NCBI GenBank assembly: GCA_046725345.1
Contig: JBKOYJ010000028.1
Coordinates: 1,300 to 65,299, forward strand
DNA from: Actinomycetota bacterium
GTDB taxonomy: Bacteria; Actinomycetota; Thermoleophilia; Gaiellales; Gaiellaceae
Length of the DNA: 64,000 bases
Direction of reading: 5' to 3'
Below the pieces are notes generated by a model. The model worked only from the letters and a program-made list of their open reading frames with translations. It had not been told where the DNA came from and did no database searches. Both the position numbers and the translations under genes were made by a program. Positions 3,570 to 51,406 of this stretch are shown piece after piece (position 1 is the stretch's first letter; every line of letters starts with the position of its first letter).

Positions 3570-4934
3570 GTGAAACGGATAACGCCAGCGAAGATGACAG
3601 GGGAAAATCGTCTTGCAGCAGTGGTAATGGCCGGCGGGCTCGGAACGCGGATGCGGTCGGCGACGCCCAAGCATCTTCATCCGCTGCTCGGCCGGCGCAT
3701 GGTCGACTGGGCGGTCGACGCGGTGCGGGCGCTGCGACCGGATCCGCTCGTGGTCGTCTGCTCGCCGGAGGCCGAGCAGCCGCTCTCGGGCTCGCTCGAC
3801 GGGGTGCTTCTCGCCGTCCAACGCAAGGCGCGGGGAACGGGCGACGCCGTCGCGGCGGCCCGTGACTCGCTCGGTGTCTTCGACGGTGACGTGCTCGTCG
3901 TTCCCGGCGACGGCCCGCTGCTGACGCCGCGGCTGCTCGAAGAGGTCGTCGCGACGCACCGGCGCGAGCGGCCTGCGCTGACGATGGTGACGGTCGAGCC
4001 CGAGACGCCGCGGGCGTACGGCCGCGTGCTCCGGAGCGCGACCGGAGACGTCGAAGCCATCGTCGAAGCGAGCGACGCCACGGCCGAGCAGCTCGCGATC
4101 CGGGAGTTGAACGCCTCGATCTACGTCTTCGCGGCCCGTGACCTATGGGGTGCGCTCGACCGTCTCGACGCGAGGAACGCGCAGGGCGAGCTGTACCTGA
4201 CCGATGCGGTCGCCGCGCTCGCGGCGAGCGGCCGGCCGGTGGCGACGTATCGGGCGGACGACGCCTCGGAGGCCGACGGCGTGAACACGCGAACGGAGCT
4301 CGCCGAGGCGGCCGCCGTGCTTCGCGACCGCATCAACGCCGAGCACATGGAGGCGGGCGTGACGATCGTGGATCCGGCGACGACGTGGATCGACGCGGGC
4401 GTCGAGCTCGAGGCCGACGCCGTGATCGAGCCGTTCACCGTGCTCCGCGGCCGGACGCGCGTCGCGCGCGGCGCGGTGATCGGACCGCACACGGTCGTCG
4501 TCGACGCGAACGTCGGCGCGGGGGCGACCGTCGGACCGTTCTGTTACGTTCGGCCCGGAACGGTGCTGGAGGCAGGCGTGAAGGCAGGCACGTTCGTGGA
4601 GATCAAGAACTCCCGGATCGGGGAAGGCACGAAGGTGCCGCATCTCTCGTACATCGGCGACGCCGAGATCGGGGAGGGATCGAACATCGCCGCAGGCAAC
4701 GTCACCGCGAACGTGCGCCACGAGTCCGGGCCGAAGCAGCGCACGAAGATTGGGCGCAACGTCAAGACGGGGATTCACGATTCCTTCGTGGCGCCGGTCG
4801 AGATCGGCGACGGCGCCTGGATCGCGCCCGGCTCGGTGATCACCGAAGACGTGCCCCCCGACTCGCTGGCGGGGTTTCCGCCACGGCAGGAGACCAAGGA
4901 GGGATACGTGCGTGGCAGACGGCGTCGCCACTGA
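3570..4934 (+). CDS. glmU: Bifunctional UDP-N-acetylglucosamine diphosphorylase / glucosamine-1-phosphate N-acetyltransferase
   Basis: N-terminal AAVVMAGGLGTRMRSATPKHLHPLLG nucleotidyltransferase motif and C-terminal left-handed beta-helix hexapeptide repeats (IGEGTKVPHLSYIGDAEIGEGSNIAAG). The start could be the ATG at 3594. Confidence 0.9.
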   Translation: MKRITPAKMTGENRLAAVVMAGGLGTRMRSATPKHLHPLLGRRMVDWAVDAVRALRPDPLVVVCSPEAEQPLSGSLDGVLLAVQRKARGTGDAVAAARDSLGVFDGDVLVVPGDGPLLTPRLLEEVVATHRRERPALTMVTVEPETPRAYGRVLRSATGDVEAIVEASDATAEQLAIRELNASIYVFAARDLWGALDRLDARNAQGELYLTDAVAALAASGRPVATYRADDASEADGVNTRTELAEAAAVLRDRINAEHMEAGVTIVDPATTWIDAGVELEADAVIEPFTVLRGRTRVARGAVIGPHTVVVDANVGAGATVGPFCYVRPGTVLEAGVKAGTFVEIKNSRIGEGTKVPHLSYIGDAEIGEGSNIAAGNVTANVRHESGPKQRTKIGRNVKTGIHDSFVAPVEIGDGAWIAPGSVITEDVPPDSLAGFPPRQETKEGYVRGRRRRH

Positions 4935-15401: not shown

Positions 15402-15503
15402 CGGTTGGTGTCCGGGCGTGTCGACCGGTCACCTCAGACGCGTGCACGGGCCAAGCCCGTGCACGCTGAATGTCGGCGCCGCCGAGTCGGGGCCTTTAGG
15501 GCG
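15402..15503. repeat. Structured intergenic repeat, family A, copy 1 (~100 nt)
   Basis: About 90 % identical by eye to 36660..36758. Core hairpin gcgtgcacgggc-caa-gcccgtgcacgc (12 bp). Lies between convergent genes and supplies the TAA stop of the minus-strand GT2. Confidence 0.8.
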
Positions 15504-20851: not shown

Positions 20852-21907
20852 ATGATGCGGTTCCGATCCATCGCCCTCTTCCTCCTCGCGACGCTCGTCG
20901 TTCTCGCGGCCGGCTGCGGCGGCGGCGACTCCGATGTCCCTGCGGGCGCGATCGCCGTCGTCGACGGTCACGAGGTCTCGAAGGCCAGCTACGACCGGAC
21001 CCTCGAGCAGGCGAAGAAGGGCTACGGGCAGAGCGGCCGCACGTTCCCGAAGCAGGGGACCCCCGAGTACCAGACCATCAAGACGAACGCGGTCAACTAC
21101 CTCGTCGAGAAGCTTCAGTTCGAGCTCGCGGCCGAGGATCTGGGCGTCAAGATCGACGAGGCGGACGTGACCAAGCGGCTGAACGAGCTGAAGCAGCAGT
21201 ACCACCTGACCGAGAAGACGTATCAGCAGCAGCTGAAGGCCGCGGGGAAGACGGATGCCGACGTCCGCGAGGACGTCAAGAACAACCTCCTCCAGGAAGG
21301 CGTCGCCGCGAAGCTAACCGAGGACATCAAGATCACCGACGACGACATCCAGAAGTACTACACGGAGCACAAGAAGGAGTTTCAGACGGCGGCGTCGCGC
21401 GACATCCGCCACATCTTGGTCTCCGTCTGCGGCGCGAAGGCGACCAACGTGCCGGCGAAGGGCTGCCTGTCCGAGGCGAAAGCCAAGAGCCGCGCGAACG
21501 AGCTGCACACGCGTCTCCAGCACGGCGCGAGCTTCACGACGCTCGCGAAGAAGTACTCGACCGATCCCGGCTCGAAGGACACCGGCGGGAAGCTGACGAT
21601 CTCGAAGGGCTCGACCGTCCCCGAGTTCGACAAGGTGGCATTCAGCCTTCCCGTCCACACCCTTTCTCAGCCCGTCAAGACGCAGTACGGCTACCACTTG
21701 ATCGAGGCGCTCTCGAGCATCCGGCCGGCGACGACGACGCCGCTCAAGCAGGTGCGCGCCCAGATCAGGACGCAGCTCGAGAACCAGAAGCGCACCGAGG
21801 CGCTGTCGCAGTGGGTGGAGAAGACGAAGGACAAGTACGCGGACAAGACCGAGTACCAGGTCGGGTTCGCGCCGCCGAAGTCCTCCACGCAGACCGTCTC
21901 GCGCTAA
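20852..21907 (+). CDS. Parvulin-type peptidyl-prolyl isomerase lipoprotein (PrsA/SurA-like)
   Basis: Lipobox LAAGC at the end of the signal peptide. Rotamase core SRDIRHILV...KKYSTDPGSKDTGGKL...FDKVAFSLPV...VKTQYGYHLIE. Confidence 0.8.
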   Translation: MMRFRSIALFLLATLVVLAAGCGGGDSDVPAGAIAVVDGHEVSKASYDRTLEQAKKGYGQSGRTFPKQGTPEYQTIKTNAVNYLVEKLQFELAAEDLGVKIDEADVTKRLNELKQQYHLTEKTYQQQLKAAGKTDADVREDVKNNLLQEGVAAKLTEDIKITDDDIQKYYTEHKKEFQTAASRDIRHILVSVCGAKATNVPAKGCLSEAKAKSRANELHTRLQHGASFTTLAKKYSTDPGSKDTGGKLTISKGSTVPEFDKVAFSLPVHTLSQPVKTQYGYHLIEALSSIRPATTTPLKQVRAQIRTQLENQKRTEALSQWVEKTKDKYADKTEYQVGFAPPKSSTQTVSR

Positions 21908-21927
21908 GGCGCCGTCTCGACGGCGCC
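21908..21927 (+). terminator. Short GC hairpin directly after the PPIase stop (no U tract)
   Basis: ggcgccg-tctcga-cggcgcc directly after TAA 21905..21907. Confidence 0.25.
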
Positions 21928-22023
21928 GACCATCAGGACGTGCGGGCGTGGTCCGCGCGTCCGTCTGAATCGACCGGTCGACACGCTGGAGGCCAACCGG
22001 ACGGCTCTGGGCGCATCGGCCGG

Positions 22024-25992: not shown

Positions 25993-26521
25993 CGCGGAGA
26001 TCGTTGCGCGCCAGCTCGGACGCCCTCCTCGGGCGTTTCTGCGCGTCGCCCGCCGCTGTCCGTTCGGACTCCCCGCGGTCACGGAGCAGGCGCCGTACGA
26101 CCGCGACGGCGAGCCGTTCCCGACGACCTACTACCTGACCTGTCCCCACGTCGTCGCGGCCCTCTCGCGGCTCGAGGCGGGGGGCGGCGTCGAACGCTGG
26201 AGCGAGGCCGCCGTTCGCGAGCCTGAGCTTGCGGAGAGCCTCGCACAAGCGACCGCTGAGCAGCGGCGCATACGCCGCCGGCTCGCGGGGGGCCGAAGCG
26301 GCAAGGACGGCGGAACATCGCTTGCGCTCGGCATCGCGGGCGCCGGCCGCCGCGGCAGCCTCAAGTGTTTGCACGCCCACGTCGCGTTCGCGCTCGCCCG
26401 CCCCGGCTATGAGCTGGGCGATCGAATCGTCGCCGAGCTCGAGCCGCTCTGGCCGGACCGGTGCTGCAGCGAGCCGCTGTCACCGGCCGGCGATCGTGCC
26501 GCGCCTACCCGGGCTGGTTAG
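25982..26521 (+). CDS. DUF501 domain protein
   Basis: CPFGLPAVTEQAP...PFPTTYYLTCPH...LKCLHAHVAFALA is the conserved Cys/His pattern of DUF501. Confidence 0.75.
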   Translation: MVDDAEIVARQLGRPPRAFLRVARRCPFGLPAVTEQAPYDRDGEPFPTTYYLTCPHVVAALSRLEAGGGVERWSEAAVREPELAESLAQATAEQRRIRRRLAGGRSGKDGGTSLALGIAGAGRRGSLKCLHAHVAFALARPGYELGDRIVAELEPLWPDRCCSEPLSPAGDRAAPTRAG

Positions 26522-26527
26522 CATCGC

Positions 26528-26848
26528 GTGCCCGTGAACGCGGCCGTCGAGCACGCCCGGCAGGAGTGGGAGGAGAGCGCGCGCCGACTCGACCAGGAGG
26601 CGCGCGACCGTGCCCACCGGCTGCAGCTGCTCCGGCAGGTGGAGGCCGTGACGGCCGAGCTCCGTCGCCGCATCGGCGAGACGTTCACGCTCGCCGAGCT
26701 CGCGGGCGAGTACGCGCGGGCGGAGGCGTGGACTCGCGAGGCGGTGGCGGCGACGGAACCACCGCCCGGCTGGCCGAGCACGCTCGCGCTGGTCGAGGGC
26801 GCGGCGTTCCGCGCCTACGCACGCGGCGCGATCGACTACGCCCCTTGA
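26528..26848 (+). CDS. Hypothetical protein (helical, charged)
   Basis: 106 aa ORF in the coding-like frame. No family recognised. Confidence 0.4.
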   Translation: MPVNAAVEHARQEWEESARRLDQEARDRAHRLQLLRQVEAVTAELRRRIGETFTLAELAGEYARAEAWTREAVAATEPPPGWPSTLALVEGAAFRAYARGAIDYAP

Positions 26849-27069
26849 GCGCGACCCCGGTGCGCCGCGCGCGACCGCGCCGCCGTCCGCTCGCGCGCGT
26901 CGCCCTGCTCGTCGCGGCAGGCGTGCTCCTGTTCCTCTTCGGCGTCGCGCTCGGCGAGGCGCTCGAGGAAGGCCCGTCTGGGGGAACGCGCACGGAGGTC
27001 CGAACGCTCCGTCCGGCGACGGTCGCGCCGCCGGCCCGGACGGTGACGGTGATCGTCACCGAGCGCTGA
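26845..27069 (+). CDS. Small single-pass membrane protein, hypothetical
   Basis: TTG overlaps the upstream stop (TTGA). Arg-rich N-terminus, then LARVALLVAAGVLLFLFGVALG. The stop lies inside repeat family B. Confidence 0.3.
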   Translation: MSATPVRRARPRRRPLARVALLVAAGVLLFLFGVALGEALEEGPSGGTRTEVRTLRPATVAPPARTVTVIVTER

Positions 27070-27343
27070 AAGCTGCGCTTTCAGCGCTTCCGGGGTTAGA
27101 CCCTTTGGGTGAGCGCGCGCGAAGAGCGCGGTCTTCGCGCGCTCTTTCCCGGGCGTCCGAGAGCCGCGAAGGCGACCGTCAGCAGGGGCCGTGAACCGGT
27201 CACCGAGCGCTGAAAGCTGCGCTTTCAGCGCTTCCGGGGTTAGACCCTTCGGGTGAGCGCGCGCGAAGAGCGCGGTCTTCGCGCGCTCTTTCCCGGGCGT
27301 CCGAGAGCCGCGAAGGCGACCTTCGGCAGGGGCCGTGGGCCGG
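27056..27343. repeat. Tandem direct repeat, family B, 2 x 144 bp
   Basis: Units 27056..27199 and 27200..27343 differ at about 5 positions. Each carries hairpins gcgctgaaagc-tgc-gctttcagcgc and aagagcgcg-gtcttcg-cgcgctctt. Confidence 0.9.
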
Positions 27344-27374
27344 TCGACCGTAGTTAAGAAGCGTAATATTTGAT

Positions 27375-27380
27375 TAGATT
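27375..27380 (+). promoter_or_regulatory. -10 box TAGATT in an AT-rich patch, 8 nt upstream of GTG 27389
   Basis: gtagttaagaagcgtaatatttgattagatt is strikingly AT-rich for this genome. No SD present. Confidence 0.4.
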
Positions 27381-27388
27381 CCCGGACT

Positions 27389-27979
27389 GTGGCAAATCGC
27401 GATGCTCTCGCCCCCCGCGCGCCGGGAAGCGAGCCCGACTGGCTCACCCTCGGTCAGGCGGCGAAGTACCTGGGGGTCGCCCAGAGCACGATCCGCAAGT
27501 GGTCGGATCAGGGTCGGCTGCCCGCCTTCTACACGCCGGGCGGCCATCGGCGCTACCGGCGGTCCGACCTCGAGGCGTTCCTCGAGCGCTCCGGGCCCGC
27601 CAACCGCGCGAAGGAAGGACCCGTCGTCCTCATCGTCGACGACGACCCCGGTCTGCGGGCATTCGTGCGCGCACGCCTGGAGCTCGAGGGCTACGCAGTC
27701 CAGGAAGCGGGGAGTGCGGAAGAGGGCCTCACCGCGCTCGAGGAGGGCGCTCCCGACCTGATCCTCCTGGACGTGATGATGCCGAAGGTCGACGGGTGGG
27801 AGATGCTCCGGCGGGTCCAGGAGCGGCACGGCGTCGGTGCCATTCCGGTTCTCATGTTCAGCGGCAAGGTGGACGCCGCGGCGGAGGAGGCGGCCTCGCG
27901 TGGTGCGCACGGGTTCATCGGCAAGCCGTTCGACCCGCAGCAGCTGATCGAGTCGACGAAGCAGATGCTCCCGACCTGA
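27389..27979 (+). CDS. Response regulator with N-terminal excisionase/MerR-type HTH (HTH_17-like) and C-terminal receiver domain
   Basis: WLTLGQAAKYLGVAQSTIRKWSDQGRLPAFYTPGGHRRYRRSDLEAFL (HTH). Then VLIVDDDPG...LILLDVMMPKVDG...VLMFSGK...FIGKPF (REC with all phospho-acceptor pocket residues). Confidence 0.8.
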   Translation: MANRDALAPRAPGSEPDWLTLGQAAKYLGVAQSTIRKWSDQGRLPAFYTPGGHRRYRRSDLEAFLERSGPANRAKEGPVVLIVDDDPGLRAFVRARLELEGYAVQEAGSAEEGLTALEEGAPDLILLDVMMPKVDGWEMLRRVQERHGVGAIPVLMFSGKVDAAAEEAASRGAHGFIGKPFDPQQLIESTKQMLPT

Positions 27980-28045
27980 GCCGGGACGTCCCGGCGCGCG
28001 GAGGGTGCGGGCCTGACGGCGATCGACGAGCACCTCCAGCGCTGG

Positions 28046-28573
28046 GTGGTCGAGCATCGCGTCGACGCTCTCGACCCGCTCGTCGTCGCGCTCTCGCGCC
28101 TGGGAAGCTTCGGTCTCGTCTGGATCTTCGCCGCCGCAGTGGCCGCGGCCGCGTGGCGCCGGCCGGACGTGCTGTGGCTGACGACGGCGTCGGTCGCGGC
28201 GGCCGACCTCGTCGCGCTGGCGCTCAAGACCGCGATCGGCCGTCCGCGTCCGTACGTGCGCTTCCCCGAGCAGGAGCCGCTGCTCCGCACGGCCTTCGAT
28301 TACTCGCTGCCGTCAGGCCATGCGGCGACGAGCTTCGCCGCCGCGACCGTGCTCGTCCGCTTCGCGCCCCGCCTCGCGCCGGCGCTGTTCCCGCTCGCAG
28401 CGGCGATCGCGTGGTCGCGTGTCTACGTCGGCGTCCACTATCCGTCCGACATCCTTCTCGGGGCGCTCCTCGGCGTCGCCGTCGGGCTCGCCGTCGTGGC
28501 CGCGGCGCCTAGAGTTCGTCGCCGGCTTGAAGCAGCCCGGCGACGATCACCACCACTGCCGCCGCCAGGCTGA
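28046..28573 (+). CDS. PAP2-family phosphatase (membrane)
   Basis: KTAIGRPRP...PSGHAATSF...SRVYVGVHYPSD are PAP2 motifs C1-C3. The true start is probably CTG 28013 behind GGAGG (see findings). Confidence 0.8.
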   Translation: MVEHRVDALDPLVVALSRLGSFGLVWIFAAAVAAAAWRRPDVLWLTTASVAAADLVALALKTAIGRPRPYVRFPEQEPLLRTAFDYSLPSGHAATSFAAATVLVRFAPRLAPALFPLAAAIAWSRVYVGVHYPSDILLGALLGVAVGLAVVAAAPRVRRRLEAARRRSPPLPPPG

Positions 28574-29054
28574 TCCAGATCCCGACCGCGCGCCCGTCCG
28601 CGGGGATGAACCGATCCGGGATCGAGATGATCCGGATCAGGACGAAGATCGTCGCGAGCGAGCCGAGCGCGATCACCACGAGGCTCTCGGGGAGCGCGGC
28701 GGGCGGTTCGATCCCGGCGGCACGGAGAGCGATCAGCGCGAGCAGCACCACGCCGGTGAAGAAGACGAGCTTGCCGAGCGCGCCTGTGTCCCACCCGAGC
28801 ACGCTGATGGTGAGCCCGTCGCCCGAGCCCCTGTACCAGCCTGTGAACGCCGACACGGCGAGCACGAGCGAGGCCAGGAGCGTCAGGCGCTCGCCCGTCG
28901 TCCAGAGCCCCTCGCCGCGGCCGGGCACCACCGTCCGGTCGGGCCCGCGGCGCAGACGCCCCGGGTCGCGAGGATCGCGCTCGGACGTTTGCACGGCGCT
29001 CAGTATGGGGACCGCGCCCAGCGCGCGCTTCGCTTGGGATCGATCCGCAGCCAC
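28509..29054 (-). CDS. Hypothetical integral membrane protein
   Basis: 181 aa with four hydrophobic helices. Its 3' end overlaps the PAP2 3' end by 65 nt. Confidence 0.5.
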   Translation of the reverse strand: MAADRSQAKRALGAVPILSAVQTSERDPRDPGRLRRGPDRTVVPGRGEGLWTTGERLTLLASLVLAVSAFTGWYRGSGDGLTISVLGWDTGALGKLVFFTGVVLLALIALRAAGIEPPAALPESLVVIALGSLATIFVLIRIISIPDRFIPADGRAVGIWISLAAAVVVIVAGLLQAGDEL

Positions 29055-29105
29055 CGGTCCCTCGCCCGGGCACCGAAGCCTCGCTCATACATTCGTTACA
29101 GTTCC

Positions 29106-29372
29106 ATGCGCTTGGAAAGCTCGCCGCGCGTCGCGGGCGCACTGGAAGGGGTCGTCTTGGAAGCAACCAACCGTTCGGGAATAGAAGCCTCGGCCGATGG
29201 GTTCGTCGAGTTTCGCGCGGCGGGCGAGGCGGTCGACGGCGAGTACCGCTGCAGCGAGTGCGGCTACGGCGTCGTCGTCGTGGGCGTCCTGCCCGAGTGC
29301 CCCATGTGCCGTTCGACGGCCTGGGAGCGCGGCGCGTGGAGCGGCGTGGGGCGGCTCCACGCCCCGTTGTAA
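29106..29372 (+). CDS. Small zinc-ribbon protein, hypothetical
   Basis: 88 aa from the ATG at 29106. CSECGY...CPMCRS gives a CxxC-x16-CxxC knuckle pair. Confidence 0.45.
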   Translation: MRLESSPRVAGALEGVVLEATNRSGIEASADGFVEFRAAGEAVDGEYRCSECGYGVVVVGVLPECPMCRSTAWERGAWSGVGRLHAPL

Positions 29373-29378
29373 GCGCTA

Positions 29379-29470
29379 AAGCTGCGCTTTCAGCGCTTTC
29401 TGGGTAGACGCTTCGGGTGAGCGCGGCCGAAGAGCGCGGTCTTCGCGCGCTCTTCGGCCGCTGGGCCATA
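29379..29470. repeat. Repeat family B, third (single, diverged) copy
   Basis: gcgctaaagctgcgctttcagcgc... aligns with the 5' ~90 nt of the 144 bp unit. The second hairpin is extended to 16 bp (gcggccgaagagcgcg/cgcgctcttcggccgc). Confidence 0.7.
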
Positions 29471-29472
29471 CT
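29467..29472 (+). promoter_or_regulatory. -10-like hexamer CATACT, 8 nt upstream of ATG 29481
   Basis: Same spacing as the other candidate leaderless promoters. Confidence 0.25.
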
Positions 29473-29480
29473 GGTCCTCG

Positions 29481-32219
29481 ATGGTTGTGGAGCCGAGCCA
29501 GGCGATGGAGTCGCGAGCGGCGTCGTCCGTTCCCGACCTGCAGGCGGTCGCGGCGACGGCTCGAGCTCTCGCCGTCGCGCAGACGCTCGACGAGGCGCTC
29601 CACGAGCTCGTCGGGGCGGCCGCGCGAACGCTCGCCGCGCGAGTGGCCATCGCACGTGTCGTCGATCCAGCGACGCGAACGCTCGCAGCCCGCGCGGTGG
29701 CGAGCGCCTCGCCGGCGCTCGCGGCCGAGGTGGCCGGCTCTCGCCTGCCGCTCGACGTCCTGCCGGCCGAGGAGACCGACGAGACCGGGATGCCGGCGGA
29801 GCTTCGGGCGCTCGCCGAGCGAGCGGGTGCGAGGGCCGTCCTGCTGCTCGCCGTACGCGTCGACGGGGAGGCCGTCGGCAGCCTGGAGCTGCTGCGGGCG
29901 GCGCCGACCTTCTCGGCATCGGAACGGCTACTGGCGCGCATCGCGGCCGACCAGCAGGCCGCCGCGATCCGCGCCTTCGACCTGCCAACGCGAAACGGCG
30001 TCTCGTCGGTGGAGAGCGCGCTCGAGCTCGCCGGCGCGGCGCTCGTGGCGGGATCCGACGAGGAGCGCATCGCGGTCGAGATCGCACGGCTCGCAGCCGC
30101 CGCCACGCGTGCGACGGCCGCCGTCGTGTGGCGACGCGAGGCCGAGGGGGTCGCCGCGGCGGGCGTCTACGGGTCGCGCGAGCGTGCGACGTCGCCCGAG
30201 GCACGCGAGCAAGCGGTGCGCGCGCTCGAGGAGGCACAGCCGCTCGTCGTCGCGCCGAACCGGGGGCTCGCCACGGTCCAGCTGGGCGAGCCCGCGCTCC
30301 ACGCGCTCCAGCTCTTCTTCGAGGAAGATGCTGCGCCGCCGCCGGCAACGCTCGACGCCCTCGCCAGCTTCGCCGTGCGCGCGGCCAACGTGTTGGGCGC
30401 GGGCGAGCGTGCCCGAACGCTCACGACTGAGCTCGAGCGCACGCGAGAGCTGCTGGCGCTTACCGCGCGAATGAACGCCGAGCTCTCGCTCTCGCATCGG
30501 CTCGACGCGGTGGTCGAGCACGTCGCCGAGCTGCTCGGCGCGACGCGGGTCGCCGTGTACCTGCGGGAACGCTCGCAGCTGGAGGCGGCGGCATCGCGTG
30601 GCCTCGAAGGCCCGCACGAGGCGGTCGCCGAACGGCTGCTCGAGCTCGCTATCGGCCCCTTCCGGGCCCGCGGAATGCTCGTCGTCCCCGCCGCCGTCGG
30701 CGATCCACGGCTCTCCGGGCTCGAGGGCGAGCTGGAAGCGACCGGAATCGGGGCGGCCGTCGCCGTGCCGTTGCTCGTGCAGGACAAGGTGACAGGCCTG
30801 CTCGCGGTCTACGGCTGGGGAGGTGACCTCGGCGACAACGAGAGGGCGCTGCTGAGCGCGTTCGCCGCCCAGCTCGCCGTTGCGCTCGAGAACGCGCGCT
30901 TGCACGAGCGTTCGACGAAGCTCGGTGCCGAGCTCGAGAGCGTTCTCGCCTCCGAGCGAGAGTCCGCTAACCGCCTCGCGGCGCTGTACGAGATCTCGCG
31001 TTCGTTCTTGCAGAGCGTGGCTCCCGACGTCGAGCCTGTCGACGCGACGCTGCAGGCCGTCGTCCGGACCGTCGTGGAGCTGCTCGGCGTCGACGCAGCC
31101 GTGATCCGCATGCCCGACGCCCGACGGGAGCTGCTCGTGCCGCGTGCGCTGCACATCGCGGACGAGCGGCTCGATGCGGCCCTACGCGGGATCCTCTCCG
31201 TCCCGCAGCCGCTCGACAAGCTGCCGGGCCGTCGCCTGTTTCGCCAGGGGAAGGCGTTCGTGCTCGACGCGCAGCTCGCGTCGGGGCTGGGCGGTGCGCA
31301 CGAGCTGCTCGTGCCGTTCCTCGAGAAGGGAGGGACGGCGGTGGTGCTACCCGTCGCGAGCCCGAGCGAGCTGCTCGGGACGCTGAAGCTGCTGTCACTC
31401 GACCCGAGCCGGCCGATCACCGAGGAGGCGGTCCAGCTCGGGCTCTCGGTGGCCGCCCAGGCGGCACTCGCGATCGAGAACGCACGCCTGTACGAGCACC
31501 AGAAGTACTTCACGGAGTCGATGCAGCGCTCGCTGCTTCCCAGCACGCTCCCCGACCTCCCCGGCTTTCGGCTCGGCGCGATCTACGCCTCGTCGGCGCA
31601 CGTCGACCTGGGCGGCGATGTCTACGACTACATGCCGCTCGCGGACGGACGGCTGGCAGTCGTGCTGGGCGACGTCACGGGGCACGGGGTCGAGGCGGCG
31701 GCCGACATGGCGATGGCGAAGTTCGTCTTCCGCTCGCTTGCACGCCAGCACGGGGATCCCGGGCGTTTCCTCGCCGCTGCGAACGACGTCGTCTTCGGCG
31801 AGATCGCCTCGGGCAAGTTCATCACGATGCTCTGTGTCACCGTCGATCCGCGAAGCGCGGCCGCCTCGTGCGCGAGCGCAGGCCACCCGGCGCCACGGCT
31901 CGTGCTGCCGGGAGGAGAAGTCAAGCCTCTGTCGGCGCGCGGTCTCGCGCTCGGCATCGAGCCGGGACAGGCCTACGAGGAGGTGCACGAGACGATTCCT
32001 CCAGGCGCGAGCGTCGTCCTGTACACGGACGGCGTCGTCGAGGCGCGACGCGCCGACGAGCTCTACGGCGCGGACCGGCTCGACGCGTTGCTCGTCCGCC
32101 GTTCGAAGCTCGCGCCACAGGACCTCGCCGCGGCCGTGATCGCCGATTGTCGCGCCTTCGCGGGAGGCGACCTTCGCGACGACTGCGCGGTGGTCGTGAT
32201 CCAACGCACGACGGAGTAA
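29481..32219 (+). CDS. Multi-GAF domain PP2C-type (SpoIIE/RsbU-like) protein phosphatase
   Basis: Several GAF-like repeats (each ending ...LALENARLHE / LAIENARLYE). C-terminal GGDVYDY...VVLGDVTGHGVEAA...ASAGHPAP...LYTDGVVEAR PP2C motifs. Confidence 0.85.
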   Translation: MVVEPSQAMESRAASSVPDLQAVAATARALAVAQTLDEALHELVGAAARTLAARVAIARVVDPATRTLAARAVASASPALAAEVAGSRLPLDVLPAEETDETGMPAELRALAERAGARAVLLLAVRVDGEAVGSLELLRAAPTFSASERLLARIAADQQAAAIRAFDLPTRNGVSSVESALELAGAALVAGSDEERIAVEIARLAAAATRATAAVVWRREAEGVAAAGVYGSRERATSPEAREQAVRALEEAQPLVVAPNRGLATVQLGEPALHALQLFFEEDAAPPPATLDALASFAVRAANVLGAGERARTLTTELERTRELLALTARMNAELSLSHRLDAVVEHVAELLGATRVAVYLRERSQLEAAASRGLEGPHEAVAERLLELAIGPFRARGMLVVPAAVGDPRLSGLEGELEATGIGAAVAVPLLVQDKVTGLLAVYGWGGDLGDNERALLSAFAAQLAVALENARLHERSTKLGAELESVLASERESANRLAALYEISRSFLQSVAPDVEPVDATLQAVVRTVVELLGVDAAVIRMPDARRELLVPRALHIADERLDAALRGILSVPQPLDKLPGRRLFRQGKAFVLDAQLASGLGGAHELLVPFLEKGGTAVVLPVASPSELLGTLKLLSLDPSRPITEEAVQLGLSVAAQAALAIENARLYEHQKYFTESMQRSLLPSTLPDLPGFRLGAIYASSAHVDLGGDVYDYMPLADGRLAVVLGDVTGHGVEAAADMAMAKFVFRSLARQHGDPGRFLAAANDVVFGEIASGKFITMLCVTVDPRSAAASCASAGHPAPRLVLPGGEVKPLSARGLALGIEPGQAYEEVHETIPPGASVVLYTDGVVEARRADELYGADRLDALLVRRSKLAPQDLAAAVIADCRAFAGGDLRDDCAVVVIQRTTE

Positions 32220-36659: not shown

Positions 36660-36758
36660 CGGTTGGCGTTCGGGCGTGTCGGCCGGTCAATTCAGACGCG
36701 TGCACGGGCCAAGCCCCTGCACGCTGAATGTCGGCGCCGAGTCGGCGCCTTAAAGGCG
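36660..36758. repeat. Structured intergenic repeat, family A, copy 2
   Basis: Aligns with 15402..15503. Again lies between convergent genes and supplies the TAA stop (36750..36752) of the minus-strand gene. Confidence 0.8.
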
Positions 36759-51197: not shown

Positions 51198-51406
51198 ATA
51201 GCGGAGGCGGGCTTGGCCCGCCGCAGCGTTCCCGTGCGGGAAGCGCGCGACTAACTGTGGGAGGGGGGTTCACGGGGGGAACCGGCCGTTCCCCCCGTGC
51301 TAATAGCGGAGGCGGGCTTGGCCCGCCGCAGCGTTCCCGTGCGGGAAGCGCGCGACTAACTGTGGGAGGGGGGTTCACGGGGGGAACCGGCCGTTCCCCC
51401 CGTGCT
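51198..51406. repeat. Perfect tandem direct repeat, family C, 2 x ~105 bp
   Basis: 51198..51302 and 51303..51406 are identical over 104 nt by eye. Each has hairpins ggcgggc-ttg-gcccgcc and cacggggggaac-cggcc-gttccccccgtg (12 bp). Confidence 0.9.

What the first reader, a model, noticed from the sequence alone, without database searches (positions are those of the whole stretch)
27056..29470. Repeat family B: 2 x 144 bp tandem plus a third copy 2 kb away, each placed just upstream of a signalling gene
Seen: units 27056..27199 and 27200..27343 differ at about 5 positions, and a diverged ~90 nt copy lies at 29379..29470. Each copy starts at or next to the stop codon of the upstream plus-strand ORF (TGA 27067..27069 lies inside unit 1; TAA 29370..29372 lies just before copy 3). 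Each ends shortly before a regulatory gene: the HTH-REC regulator at 27389 and the GAF-PP2C phosphatase at 29481. Every copy has hairpin 1, gcgctgaaagc-tgc-gctttcagcgc. Every copy also has a second region that can fold in two mutually exclusive ways (aagagcgcg/cgcgctctt versus cgcgaaga/tcttcgcg). In copy 3 the second stem is extended to 16 bp by changes on both arms (gcggccgaagagcgcg/cgcgctcttcggccgc), i.e. the pairing is maintained or improved. Inference: a structured RNA element (terminator, sRNA or 5' leader) or a REP-like element that may couple expression of the two signalling genes.
Basis: seen in the sequence. Interest (0 to 1): 0.6.

Follow-up and report, generated by a model that had tools for sequence, protein, structure and literature searches.

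The report
Gene-end hairpin repeat of a Gaiellales bacterium
The three copies belong to a genome-wide family of about 24 small three-hairpin DNA insertions that sit on the stop codons of unrelated genes in an uncultured soil actinobacterium. They probably mark transcript ends and do not link the two signalling genes, so this is a new family of a familiar kind of repeat.

Summary
There is a 2 x 144 bp tandem (96% identical) and a third copy 2 kb away, each starting at a stop codon.

Only the first ~86 nt of each unit is a repeat family. The draft genome (Gaiellales, 70% GC, 72% complete) holds 19 close and about 5 diverged copies. Related versions occur in a minority of other Gaiellales genomes.

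18 of 24 copies abut the stop codon of a co-oriented gene, among them rpsI, rplQ, rpmB, rpoD, ribH and mreB. About nine lie between convergent genes.

Relatives show the empty sites. In the window both loci are insertions between the upstream stop codon and the downstream gene's own conserved promoter-like block. They are therefore not leaders of the signalling genes.

Hairpins 1 and 3 carry many compensatory changes. There is no Rfam match, no target duplication and no specific link to a RAYT transposase.

Best reading: a REP/BIME- or TRIT-like gene-end repeat that acts on the upstream transcript's 3' end (terminator, stabiliser or processing site).

This scan has already noted similar gene-end repeat families in other Gaiellales genomes. 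Verdict: new member of a known kind, modest interest.

The parts
27055..27350 (+). Tandem array, 2 x 144 bp. Each unit is the last ~6-9 nt of the upstream ORF, then the ~86-nt family core, then a ~54-nt locus-specific tail.
   Evidence: TRF. Unit 2 is 97% identical to unit 1. The duplication junction lies at the microhomology GTCACCG / GTCGACCG.
27061..27146 (+). Family-B core, unit 1. H1 is 27061..27089 (13-bp stem, loop UGC, contains stop TGA 27067..27069). Linker CCGGGGUUAG follows. H2 is 27100..27110. H3 is 27111..27146 (loop GCGCGG).
   Evidence: nhmmer and covariance-model hits, fold, pair counts.
27205..27290 (+). Family-B core, unit 2: H1 27205..27233, H2 27244..27254, H3 27255..27290.
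29371..29454 (+). Family-B core, copy 3. H1 is 29371..29398 (one G missing in the 5' arm). H2 is 29408..29418. H3 region is 29419..29454. The copy-specific 16-bp hairpin 29423..29461 uses flanking bases 29455..29461.
26860..27069 (+). Small membrane-protein ORF (69 aa) that ends inside H1 of unit 1. It is conserved in relatives, where it ends ...TVTVTVTAEG* or similar.
   Evidence: Coding signature. No Pfam match. Orthologous ORF in 20 relatives.
27353..27380 (+). Conserved promoter-like block GTTAAGAAG-N-TTTGnTTAGATT of the HTH-receiver regulator gene, lying 3' of the array.
   Evidence: Conserved in about 20 relatives directly after the small ORF's stop. Not matched by the sigma-70 consensus scan.
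27389..27979 (+). HTH_17 + receiver-domain regulator, the downstream neighbour. Not part of the element.
   Evidence: Pfam.
29154..29372 (+). Zinc-ribbon ORF (start uncertain). Its TAA stop overlaps the first bases of copy 3.
   Evidence: Orthologue in G006.
29467..29472 (+). -10-like CATACT upstream of the GAF-PP2C gene, conserved in relatives and lying 3' of copy 3.
29481..32219 (+). GAF + SpoIIE/PP2C phosphatase, the downstream neighbour. Not part of the element.
   Evidence: Pfam.

Best explanation
Family B is a dispersed, non-coding repeat of about 86 nt in an uncultured Gaiellales (Thermoleophilia) bacterium. It folds into three hairpins. H1 is a 12-13 bp stem with loop UNC. A conserved linker G(U)UAG follows. 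H2 is a short hairpin ACCC-UUC-GGGU, or a longer form with loop UCGCUUCGCUC. H3 is a 13-15 bp stem with loop GCGCGG.

Copies are inserted DNA. They sit, in one orientation, directly on the stop codon of an upstream gene. Often the stop codon lies in the base or the 5' arm of H1.

Shown: the copy number, the placement, the orientation, the insertion status at the two window loci, and the compensatory changes.

Inferred: the element is transcribed as the tail of the upstream mRNA. Its hairpins then stop RNA polymerase, block 3' exonucleases, or offer a processing site. This defines the 3' end and insulates the next gene's own promoter.

The 2 x 144 bp array is a recent local duplication of one inserted copy, made by slippage between GTCACCG and GTCGACCG. 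The neighbouring signalling genes are coincidental.
For: Family size: 19 close copies (nhmmer) plus ~5 diverged copies (covariance model) in 2.28 Mb.

Placement: 18 of 24 copies have a co-oriented ORF with a coding signature that stops within a few nt of the H1 base. With automatic gene calls the count is 14 of 24, against a null of 1.2% (p ~1e-21). In other genomes 18 of 23 sampled copies behave the same way.

Upstream genes include the operon-end genes rpsI, rplQ, rpmB, rpoD, ribH and mreB.

TAA stops make up 7 of 18, against 9.6% genome-wide (p 9e-4).

Empty sites:
- The small-ORF/regulator junction lacks the element in 20 relatives.
- The zinc-ribbon/PP2C junction lacks it in G006, the one relative in which the zinc-ribbon gene was seen next to the PP2C gene.
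- The rpsI-glmM junction is empty in most of the order.
- Only this genome has the element after rplQ.

Structure: H1 has 11 of 13 pairs changed on both sides, and no shuffle out of 500 reaches the observed values. H3 across sub-families is 92% paired with 11 of 13 pairs changed on both sides.

After rplQ, the 3' arm of H1 (GCTTTCAGGGCG) complements the gene's own native last codons.

In G013 some H1 copies are followed by T5-6, like canonical terminators. A canonical terminator is seen after rplQ in G082, so this lineage uses them.
Against: The consensus scan finds no canonical terminator in the window. In this genome H1 is followed by only 2-5 U in 8 nt.

G-U versus A-C mismatch counts show no strand asymmetry that would prove selection at RNA level.

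Compensatory changes could also arise at DNA level, through template switching in quasi-palindromes or recognition by a DNA enzyme.

Four loci do not follow a detectable gene end: C46 and C16 lie in divergent regions, C129 has a 660-nt gap, and C21 is at a contig end.

For mycobacterial TRIT, the closest analogue, Term-seq found little overlap with real termination sites (10.1101/2022.06.01.494293).
Confidence: 0.6

Rival explanations
1. Purely selfish or neutral mobile DNA. The family spreads by an unidentified enzyme or by recombination or template switching. It survives only where insertion is harmless, namely just past stop codons in a compact genome. It has no role for the host. The hairpins serve the copying mechanism.
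For: Patchy distribution: hits in 7 of 41 relatives, none in the closest relative G017. Each genome has its own 'house' version at the same gene end, for example after rpoD. Modules are shuffled between families, and elements are stacked with families C and D. The H1 of C102:4776 carries the same stem-breaking T that is needed only as the rpsI stop codon, which suggests copying from one gene end to another. There is no G-U strand asymmetry.
Against: No transposase link was found. The RAYT-like gene of this genome is flanked by a different palindrome. No convincing model hits lie next to Y1 genes (best 17 bits). Y1_Tnp occurs in 30 of 41 genomes regardless of family B. No target-site duplication is seen at the empty-site comparisons. 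Tolerance alone does not explain the strict co-orientation with the upstream gene or placement to within a few nt. The linker and H2 are conserved across genera.
Confidence: 0.28
2. One reading: a 5' leader or riboswitch-like element with two exclusive folds that co-regulates the downstream HTH-receiver regulator and the GAF-PP2C phosphatase.
For: Both window loci precede signalling genes. In the main sub-family the sequence can form either fold, and copy 3 forms a 16-bp version of the second fold.
Against: The other copies precede unrelated genes or face convergent genes. Conserved promoter-like blocks of both signalling genes lie 3' of the element, and relatives keep these genes without the element. 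The alternative fold has no covariation and is 58% paired across sub-families. There is no Rfam match.
Confidence: 0.03
3. A DNA-level site, for example binding of a nucleoid protein, gyrase or recombinase as described for some BIMEs, or a separate small RNA gene.
For: The loops and the linker are conserved in sequence (UNC, GCGCGG, GGTTAGACCC) while the stems vary. There is no strand asymmetry of wobble pairs.
Against: The strict orientation relative to the upstream gene is not expected for a symmetric DNA-binding role. No promoter-like sequence precedes the element. Copies overlap coding ends, so an independent sRNA gene is unlikely.
Confidence: 0.09

Closest known systems
TRIT, the 'Tuberculosis Rho-independent terminator' motif of Mycobacterium (Gardner et al. 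2011, PMC3152330)
   Same: Actinobacterial. A hairpin family conserved in both sequence and structure, with many copies. [quoted passage not shown] Its function is debated: terminator, or an RNase III processing site that shapes 3' ends (PMC13714241; 10.1101/2022.06.01.494293).
   Different: TRIT is one ~45-nt palindrome, mostly bidirectional, and reported only from Mycobacterium. Family B has three different hairpins, is asymmetric and strictly oriented, and has fewer copies. I noted no sequence resemblance, but made no direct comparison with a TRIT model.
REP/BIME elements and REPIN-RAYT systems of Proteobacteria
   Same: Extragenic, GC-rich hairpin repeats at gene 3' ends. They are modular and mosaic, cluster with other repeat types, have species-specific 'house' sequences at shared positions, and show compensatory stem changes. 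A G(T)TAG-like motif precedes a hairpin.
   Different: No RAYT association was found. The unit is a fixed three-hairpin module, not a single 20-40 nt palindrome or an inverted doublet. It is oriented with the upstream gene.
Bacterial MITEs such as Correia/NEMIS, ERIC and RUP
   Same: Small non-coding insertions of about 100 nt that are co-transcribed with neighbours, can supply stop codons, and can act as terminators or RNase III substrates.
   Different: No clear terminal inverted repeats. No target-site duplication at the two empty-site comparisons.
MIRU (mycobacterial interspersed repetitive units)
   Same: Actinobacterial. Oriented with transcription, sits at gene junctions, and forms tandem arrays whose unit length is a multiple of 3 (144 nt here).
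   Different: MIRUs carry a short open frame that overlaps the flanking stop and start codons. Here each unit carries the in-frame TGA, downstream genes have their own promoter-like blocks, and about nine copies face convergent genes.

Membership tests
REP/BIME with RAYT (REPtron) | Dispersed extragenic GC-rich palindromic repeats in many copies | tested here: met
   19 + ~5 copies, all outside or at the edge of coding sequence.
REP/BIME with RAYT (REPtron) | A Y1 (RAYT) transposase gene flanked by the same repeats and co-occurring with them | tested here: not met
   The one Y1_Tnp gene found in G000 (C38) is flanked by inverted GGGGTCTGACCCC palindromes, a different family. No significant R1 hits lie next to Y1 genes of G000, G013, G032 or G036. 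Y1_Tnp is present in 30 of 41 genomes irrespective of family B. G000 is only 72% complete.
REP/BIME with RAYT (REPtron) | Conserved GTAG tetranucleotide 5' of the hairpin | tested here: inconclusive
   GGTTAG / GGGTAG precedes H2 in most copies. H2 has only 4 bp in its short form, and no enzyme is tied to it.
TRIT-type conserved terminator motif | Sequence-conserved hairpin with a narrow position distribution at the stop codon | tested here: met
   Stop-codon offsets run mostly from -8 to +6 relative to the H1 base in G000 and from -11 to +6 in relatives.
TRIT-type conserved terminator motif | Single palindromic, largely bidirectional ~45-nt motif, homologous to the Mycobacterium model | tested here: not met
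   The element has three distinct hairpins and is strand-specific. Reverse-strand model scores are far lower. No direct comparison with a TRIT model was made; whether Rfam holds TRIT was not checked.
Canonical intrinsic terminator | GC-rich hairpin followed by a U-tract (at least 5 U in 8) | tested here: not met
   No terminator-like site in window 26500..29700. H1 is followed by UUCC/UUUCU and H3 by UCUUU. Some G013 copies do have T5-6 after H1.
Canonical intrinsic terminator | Transcripts end at the site | not testable with these tools
MITE | Terminal inverted repeats and target-site duplication | tested here: not met
   Comparison with empty sites gives ...GAG|element|GTTAAGAAG, with no duplicated flank. 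Only a weak AAGCGC...GCGCTCTT end similarity is present.
MIRU | Open mini-frame through the unit that overlaps the upstream stop and the downstream start | tested here: not met
   TGA is in frame at the start of each unit. Promoter-like blocks separate the element from the next gene. About nine copies lie between convergent genes.
Riboswitch / 5' leader | Located in the 5' UTR of the regulated gene, with alternative folds supported by covariation | tested here: not met
   position; folds. No Rfam family at E<=0.05.

The most novel reading that the evidence does not exclude
Family B may be a terminator module that originated at the 3' end of rpsI and has been copied to other gene ends together with the donor's last codons and stop codon.

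The family's 5' end, AAGCG(G/C)-T(A/G)A-AAGC, equals the native Lys-Arg-stop of rpsI. That Lys-Arg-stop is conserved across the order, even where the element is absent.

The module then donates stop codons and sometimes a new C-terminal residue to recipient genes. Its free hairpin arm appears to be re-templated on the recipient's own sequence. After rplQ, the H1 3' arm matches native codons. In copy 3, the H3 5' arm matches the native downstream flank.

This points to a transposase-free spread and 'palindrome perfection' by replication template switching.
Probability: 0.15. Interest if true: 0.6.

Novelty: new member of a known kind. Interest (0 to 1): 0.35.

Why it matters
The family adds to growing evidence that uncultured Gaiellales genomes hold several families of hairpin repeats sitting exactly on stop codons. 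In this genome these are families A, B and C, and earlier notes of this scan report others in other genomes.

For annotation, these elements explain rare TAA stops, slightly altered C-termini and inflated intergenic spacers. They also mark likely operon ends.

For biology, they offer a natural set of variants for asking how GC-rich actinobacteria define mRNA 3' ends without strong U-tracts. The same question is still open for TRIT in mycobacteria.

The finding does not reveal a new regulatory link between the two signalling genes.

Tried and rejected
- Rfam scan of 26000..30500 at E<=10: only chance-level hits (best Pxr at 25 bits against a gathering score of 80, and a plant miRNA).
- Exact-pattern scans for the G000-type core in genome contigs and metagenome contigs, and for the window junction in metagenome contigs: no hits, so no strain-level copy-number or empty-site data.
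- An 18-mer of the H3 apex gave many chance hits in unrelated GC-rich genomes. It was useful only for naming the lineage (Gaiellales, Gaiellaceae and Thermoleophilia MAGs).
- RAYT link: examined and rejected.
- tRNA or tmRNA near the odd copies: none.
- Wobble-pair strand-asymmetry test for RNA-level selection: inconclusive (H1 has 6 G-U against 13 A-C; H3 has 18 against 9, and 14 of the 18 come from one terminal pair).
- Integron attC, SECIS and MIRU-type coupling were considered and dropped on anatomy. The copies are dispersed rather than arrayed. All three stop codons are used. There is no open mini-frame.
- The 54-nt tail of the 144-nt unit has no significant second copy in the genome. Its origin is unexplained.
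Full report
**1. The observation**

Tandem Repeats Finder reports one array at 27055..27350 with period 144, 2.0 copies and 96% matches. A whole-genome search with unit 1 finds unit 2 at 97% identity. It finds the third window copy at 91% over unit positions 7-91.

- TGA 27067..27069.
- TAA 29370..29372.
- An HTH_17 + receiver regulator at 27389..27979.
- A GAF + SpoIIE/PP2C phosphatase at 29481..32219.

The segments fold well. Unit 1 gives -74.6 kcal/mol (z -2.1), copy 3 gives -61.1 (z -4.5), and the family consensus gives -48.3 (z -4.0).

Three small corrections apply:
- Copy 3 lacks one G in the 5' arm of hairpin 1.
- The 16-bp stem of copy 3 uses bases 29455..29461, which lie outside the repeat.
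- Only the first ~86 nt of the 144-nt unit is repeated elsewhere.

**2. A genome-wide family**

The window lies on contig C99 of a 2.28-Mb draft genome with 135 contigs, 70.4% GC and 72% completeness. Record titles of related DNA name Gaiellales, Gaiellaceae and Thermoleophilia MAGs from soil.

Iterated nhmmer finds 19 copies of a ~86-90-nt core on 14 contigs. A covariance model built from them (R1) adds about five diverged copies, at C6:8545, C90:4491, C90:4872, C90:~5580 and C55:17318. Rfam has nothing comparable.

**3. Anatomy**

The alignment of the 19 copies (A1) shows the following parts, in order:
- H1: a 12-13 bp stem, AAGCGGGAAAAGC / GCTTTTCCCGCTT or AAGCGCTGAAAGC / GCTTTCAGCGCTT, with loop TNC.
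- A conserved linker, CTGGTTAG.
- H2: ACCC-TTC-GGGT. Seven copies carry a longer or extended form: six have the longer loop TCGCTTCGCTC, and C98 (after rpoD) has an 8-bp stem.
- H3: GAGCGCGCGCGAAGA-GCGCGG-TCTTCGCGCGCTC.
- A tail TT(T).

In H1, 11 of 13 pairs show changes on both sides. None of 500 shuffles reaches the observed pairing or covariation.

Within the main sub-family H3 hardly varies. Across the diverged G000 copies and the G032/G036 versions, the outer stem is replaced wholesale while the apex AGA-GCGCGG-TCT stays. That gives 92% of cells paired, 11 of 13 pairs changed on both sides, and no shuffle out of 500 reaching it.

Across sub-families it is 58% paired, the same as shuffles. 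It is a by-product of the (CG)n/AAGAG composition of one sub-family, not a conserved alternative structure.

**4. Position**

For each copy I looked for ORFs with the strong codon-position GC signature of this genome. 18 of 24 copies have a co-oriented ORF whose stop lies between -8 and +6 nt of the H1 base. In three further cases the stop lies at -27, at +13 (in the H1 loop) or at +34 (the TAG of the linker).

A cruder automatic gene call still gives 14 of 24. The chance value for random non-coding sites is 1.2% (binomial p ~1e-21).

The remaining copies are:
- The second tandem unit.
- One copy stacked behind a family-C element (C75).
- One copy 70 nt past a gene end (C90:5584).
- Four unclear loci: C46, C16, C129 and C21.

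TAA makes up 7 of 18 associated stops, against 9.6% genome-wide (p 9e-4). The two A's pair with the TT that closes H1.

The upstream genes are unrelated in function. Many are classical operon ends: rpsI, rplQ, rpmB, rpoD, ribH, mreB, an M50 protease, a bifunctional nuclease and a SnoaL-like protein. From the sequences I also read an M32 carboxypeptidase, an aldehyde dehydrogenase and a FAD oxidase, but I did not scan these.

About nine copies lie between convergent genes. The second gene's stop is then only 4-32 nt from H3 in five of those cases.

**5. Relatives**

R1 finds related elements in 7 of 41 Gaiellales genomes, counting G000:
- G013 (same family, another genus): 19 hits.
- G036: 14 hits.
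- G032: 6 hits.
- G006, G007 and G019: one or two hits each.

G096 has its own version, and the closest relative G017 has none.

The versions share the architecture and some motifs: the GC-UGC-GC apex of H1, the G(T)TAG linker, the long H2 and the H3 apex. Stems differ and are compensated.

In G032 and G036, H1 is replaced by CGCGGGGGAACCCAGGGTTCCCCCGCG. This is the hairpin of the window's repeat family C (51198..51406), so modules are exchanged between families.

In the sampled loci of these genomes, 18 of 23 copies again follow a co-oriented ORF's stop within ~11 nt.

**6. Empty sites**

(a) *The tandem locus.* In 20 relatives the small membrane-protein ORF (...TVTVTVTAEG* or similar) is followed at once by a conserved block, GTTAAGAAG-N-TTTGGGTAGnTT, and then by the regulator's start codon. 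This looks like a promoter feeding a leaderless or nearly leaderless mRNA.
- G017 reads GTCACTGCCGAGGGTTAAGAAGGG...
- G000 reads GTCACCGAG|CGCTGAAAGC...(2 x 144)...GGTCGACCGTA|GTTAAGAAGCG....

The array is therefore an insertion between the ORF end and the regulator's own promoter-like block. The ORF's last codon and TGA probably come from the element. No flank is duplicated. Unit 2 begins with a second copy of GTCACCGAG, and the array ends in GGTCGACCG. The array thus arose by a local duplication at that microhomology.

(b) *Copy 3.* A -10-like CATACT about 9 nt before the PP2C start is conserved in about a dozen relatives. In G000 it lies 3' of the element. G006, which has the zinc-ribbon gene, has only 25 nt between the stop and that box.

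(c) *rpsI.* In most of the order the rpsI stop is followed within 15-30 nt by glmM. G000, G019 and G070 instead have an H1 whose 5' arm is the native AAG CGN + stop.

(d) *rplQ.* Only G000, of the 29 family-f1 genomes whose rplQ 3' flank was examined, has the element. The 3' arm of its H1 (GCTTTCAGGGCG) complements the gene's own ACG CCC TGA.

(e) *rpoD.* G000, G013 and G096 have B-type elements. Six other genomes have C-type elements. The rest have unrelated hairpins or none.

Each genome thus tends to place its own 'house' repeat at the same highly expressed gene ends.

**7. How it most likely works**

What is shown:
- The copies are insertions.
- They are oriented with the upstream gene and touch or contain its stop codon.
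- They lie upstream of the next gene's promoter-like block, or face a convergent gene.
- Two long stems are maintained by compensatory change.

What is inferred: the element is the 3' tail of the upstream transcript and defines or protects its end. This could work by termination, since some G013 copies have T5-6 after H1 and canonical terminators exist in the lineage. It could also work by blocking exonucleases or by RNase III-type processing.

Caveats:
- No canonical U-tract terminator is found in the window.
- The wobble-pair test shows no RNA-strand asymmetry.
- No RNA reads could be consulted.

A purely selfish element that survives only at gene ends remains a serious rival. It is also not exclusive of a terminator role.

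**8. What moves it**

Unknown. The single Y1 (RAYT-like) gene found in G000 is flanked by inverted GGGGTCTGACCCC palindromes, which belong to another family. R1 finds nothing convincing beside Y1 genes in four genomes. Y1_Tnp is present in 30 of 41 genomes irrespective of family B. There is no target duplication.

Two details hint at copying from gene end to gene end:
- C102:4776 shares 28 identical nt of H1 with the rpsI copy 4.7 kb away. The shared stretch includes the stem-breaking T that is needed only as rpsI's stop codon.
- The family's 5' end, AAGCG(G/C), equals rpsI's native Lys-Arg codons.

This is the basis of the 'novel case', and it is inference only.

**9. Comparison with known families**

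The closest known analogue is TRIT of mycobacteria. TRIT is sequence-conserved, sits on the stop codon, and has a debated function. REP/BIME, Correia-type MITEs and MIRU each share some traits, but each fails at least one defining feature (see the membership table).

Two other repeat families of this genome also abut stop codons: family A with about 90 copies and family C with about 13.

Earlier notes of this scan describe several similar gene-end repeat families in other Gaiellales genomes. I treated those as leads. They agree with the tests made here. No look-alike of this particular sequence was on record.

**10. Verdict**

The leader, switch and signalling-coupling half is not. This is a new family of a known kind of element.

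Noticed in passing
window 15402..15503, 36660..36758, ~21906..21991: Repeat family A is the major repeat of this genome, with about 90 nhmmer hits. Its consensus is GTTGGCGTTCGATCGTGTCGACCGGTCGTTTCAGACGGACGCGCCGGCAAAGCCGGCACGTCCTGATGGTCGGCGCCGCCGAGTCGGCGCCTTAG. Its GGCGCC end abuts TTA/TCA/CTA, the stop of a minus-strand gene, and a plus-strand stop lies ~12 nt before its other end. It typically fills the gap between convergent genes.
   Followed up: partly
window 51198..51406: Repeat family C (perfect 2 x 105 tandem) has about 13 copies in G000, most starting 0-3 nt after a stop codon. The same hairpin, ACGGGGGAACCnnGGTTCCCCCGTGAGCCCCCTCC, follows rpoD in G001, G006, G020, G087, G092 and G098. 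It also forms the first hairpin of the G032/G036 elements.
   Followed up: partly
G000 contig C38, L087:1305..2037: A 189-aa Y1-transposase-like ORF (L087 1444..2013) is flanked by 57-nt inverted arms containing GGGGTCTGACCCC. This looks like a REPtron for a further REP family. The motif has no copy in the window.
   Followed up: partly
window 27353..27391 and 29467..29483: Both signalling genes have promoter-like blocks conserved across genera, ending only ~8-9 nt before the start codon (GTTAAGAAG...TAGATT-N8-GTG; CATACT-N8-ATG). This suggests leaderless or very short-leader mRNAs.
   Followed up: partly
G000 contig C102:9400..9900 (L205): rpsI is followed by glmM in nearly all Gaiellales genomes examined. 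In G000 it is followed by the element and then a short convergent ORF. A rearrangement breakpoint seems to coincide with the repeat.
   Followed up: no
G000 C16:2271..2330, C46:~3900..3970, C75:715..775, C102:~4620..4690: A further repeat, CGCGACTCGGCTCCGCGAAGCGGAGCCCGAGTCGGACCCACGGAGGGGG, follows four family-B copies directly, giving BIME-like mosaics.
   Followed up: no
G000 contig C90:4491..5670 (L052): Three diverged family-B copies lie within 1.2 kb, one after each of three consecutive genes (ribH, rpmB and a 174-codon ORF). The arrangement looks cassette-like.
   Followed up: partly
L342 (G090), L065 (G006), L066 (G007), G000 copies with long H2: The linker plus long H2, G(T)TAGACCC-TTCGCTTCGCTC-GGGTGA, is nearly identical across different genera. 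G006 carries a compensated stem variant (TACCG/CGGTA). This is unusually strong conservation for a repeat and is unexplained.
   Followed up: no
window 27147..27199 and 27291..27352: The 54-nt tail of each 144-nt unit (CCCGGGCGTCCGAGAGCCGCGAAGGCGACC...GGCCGTG..CCGG) has no significant second copy in the genome. It is absent from relatives' empty sites and its origin is unknown.
   Followed up: partly
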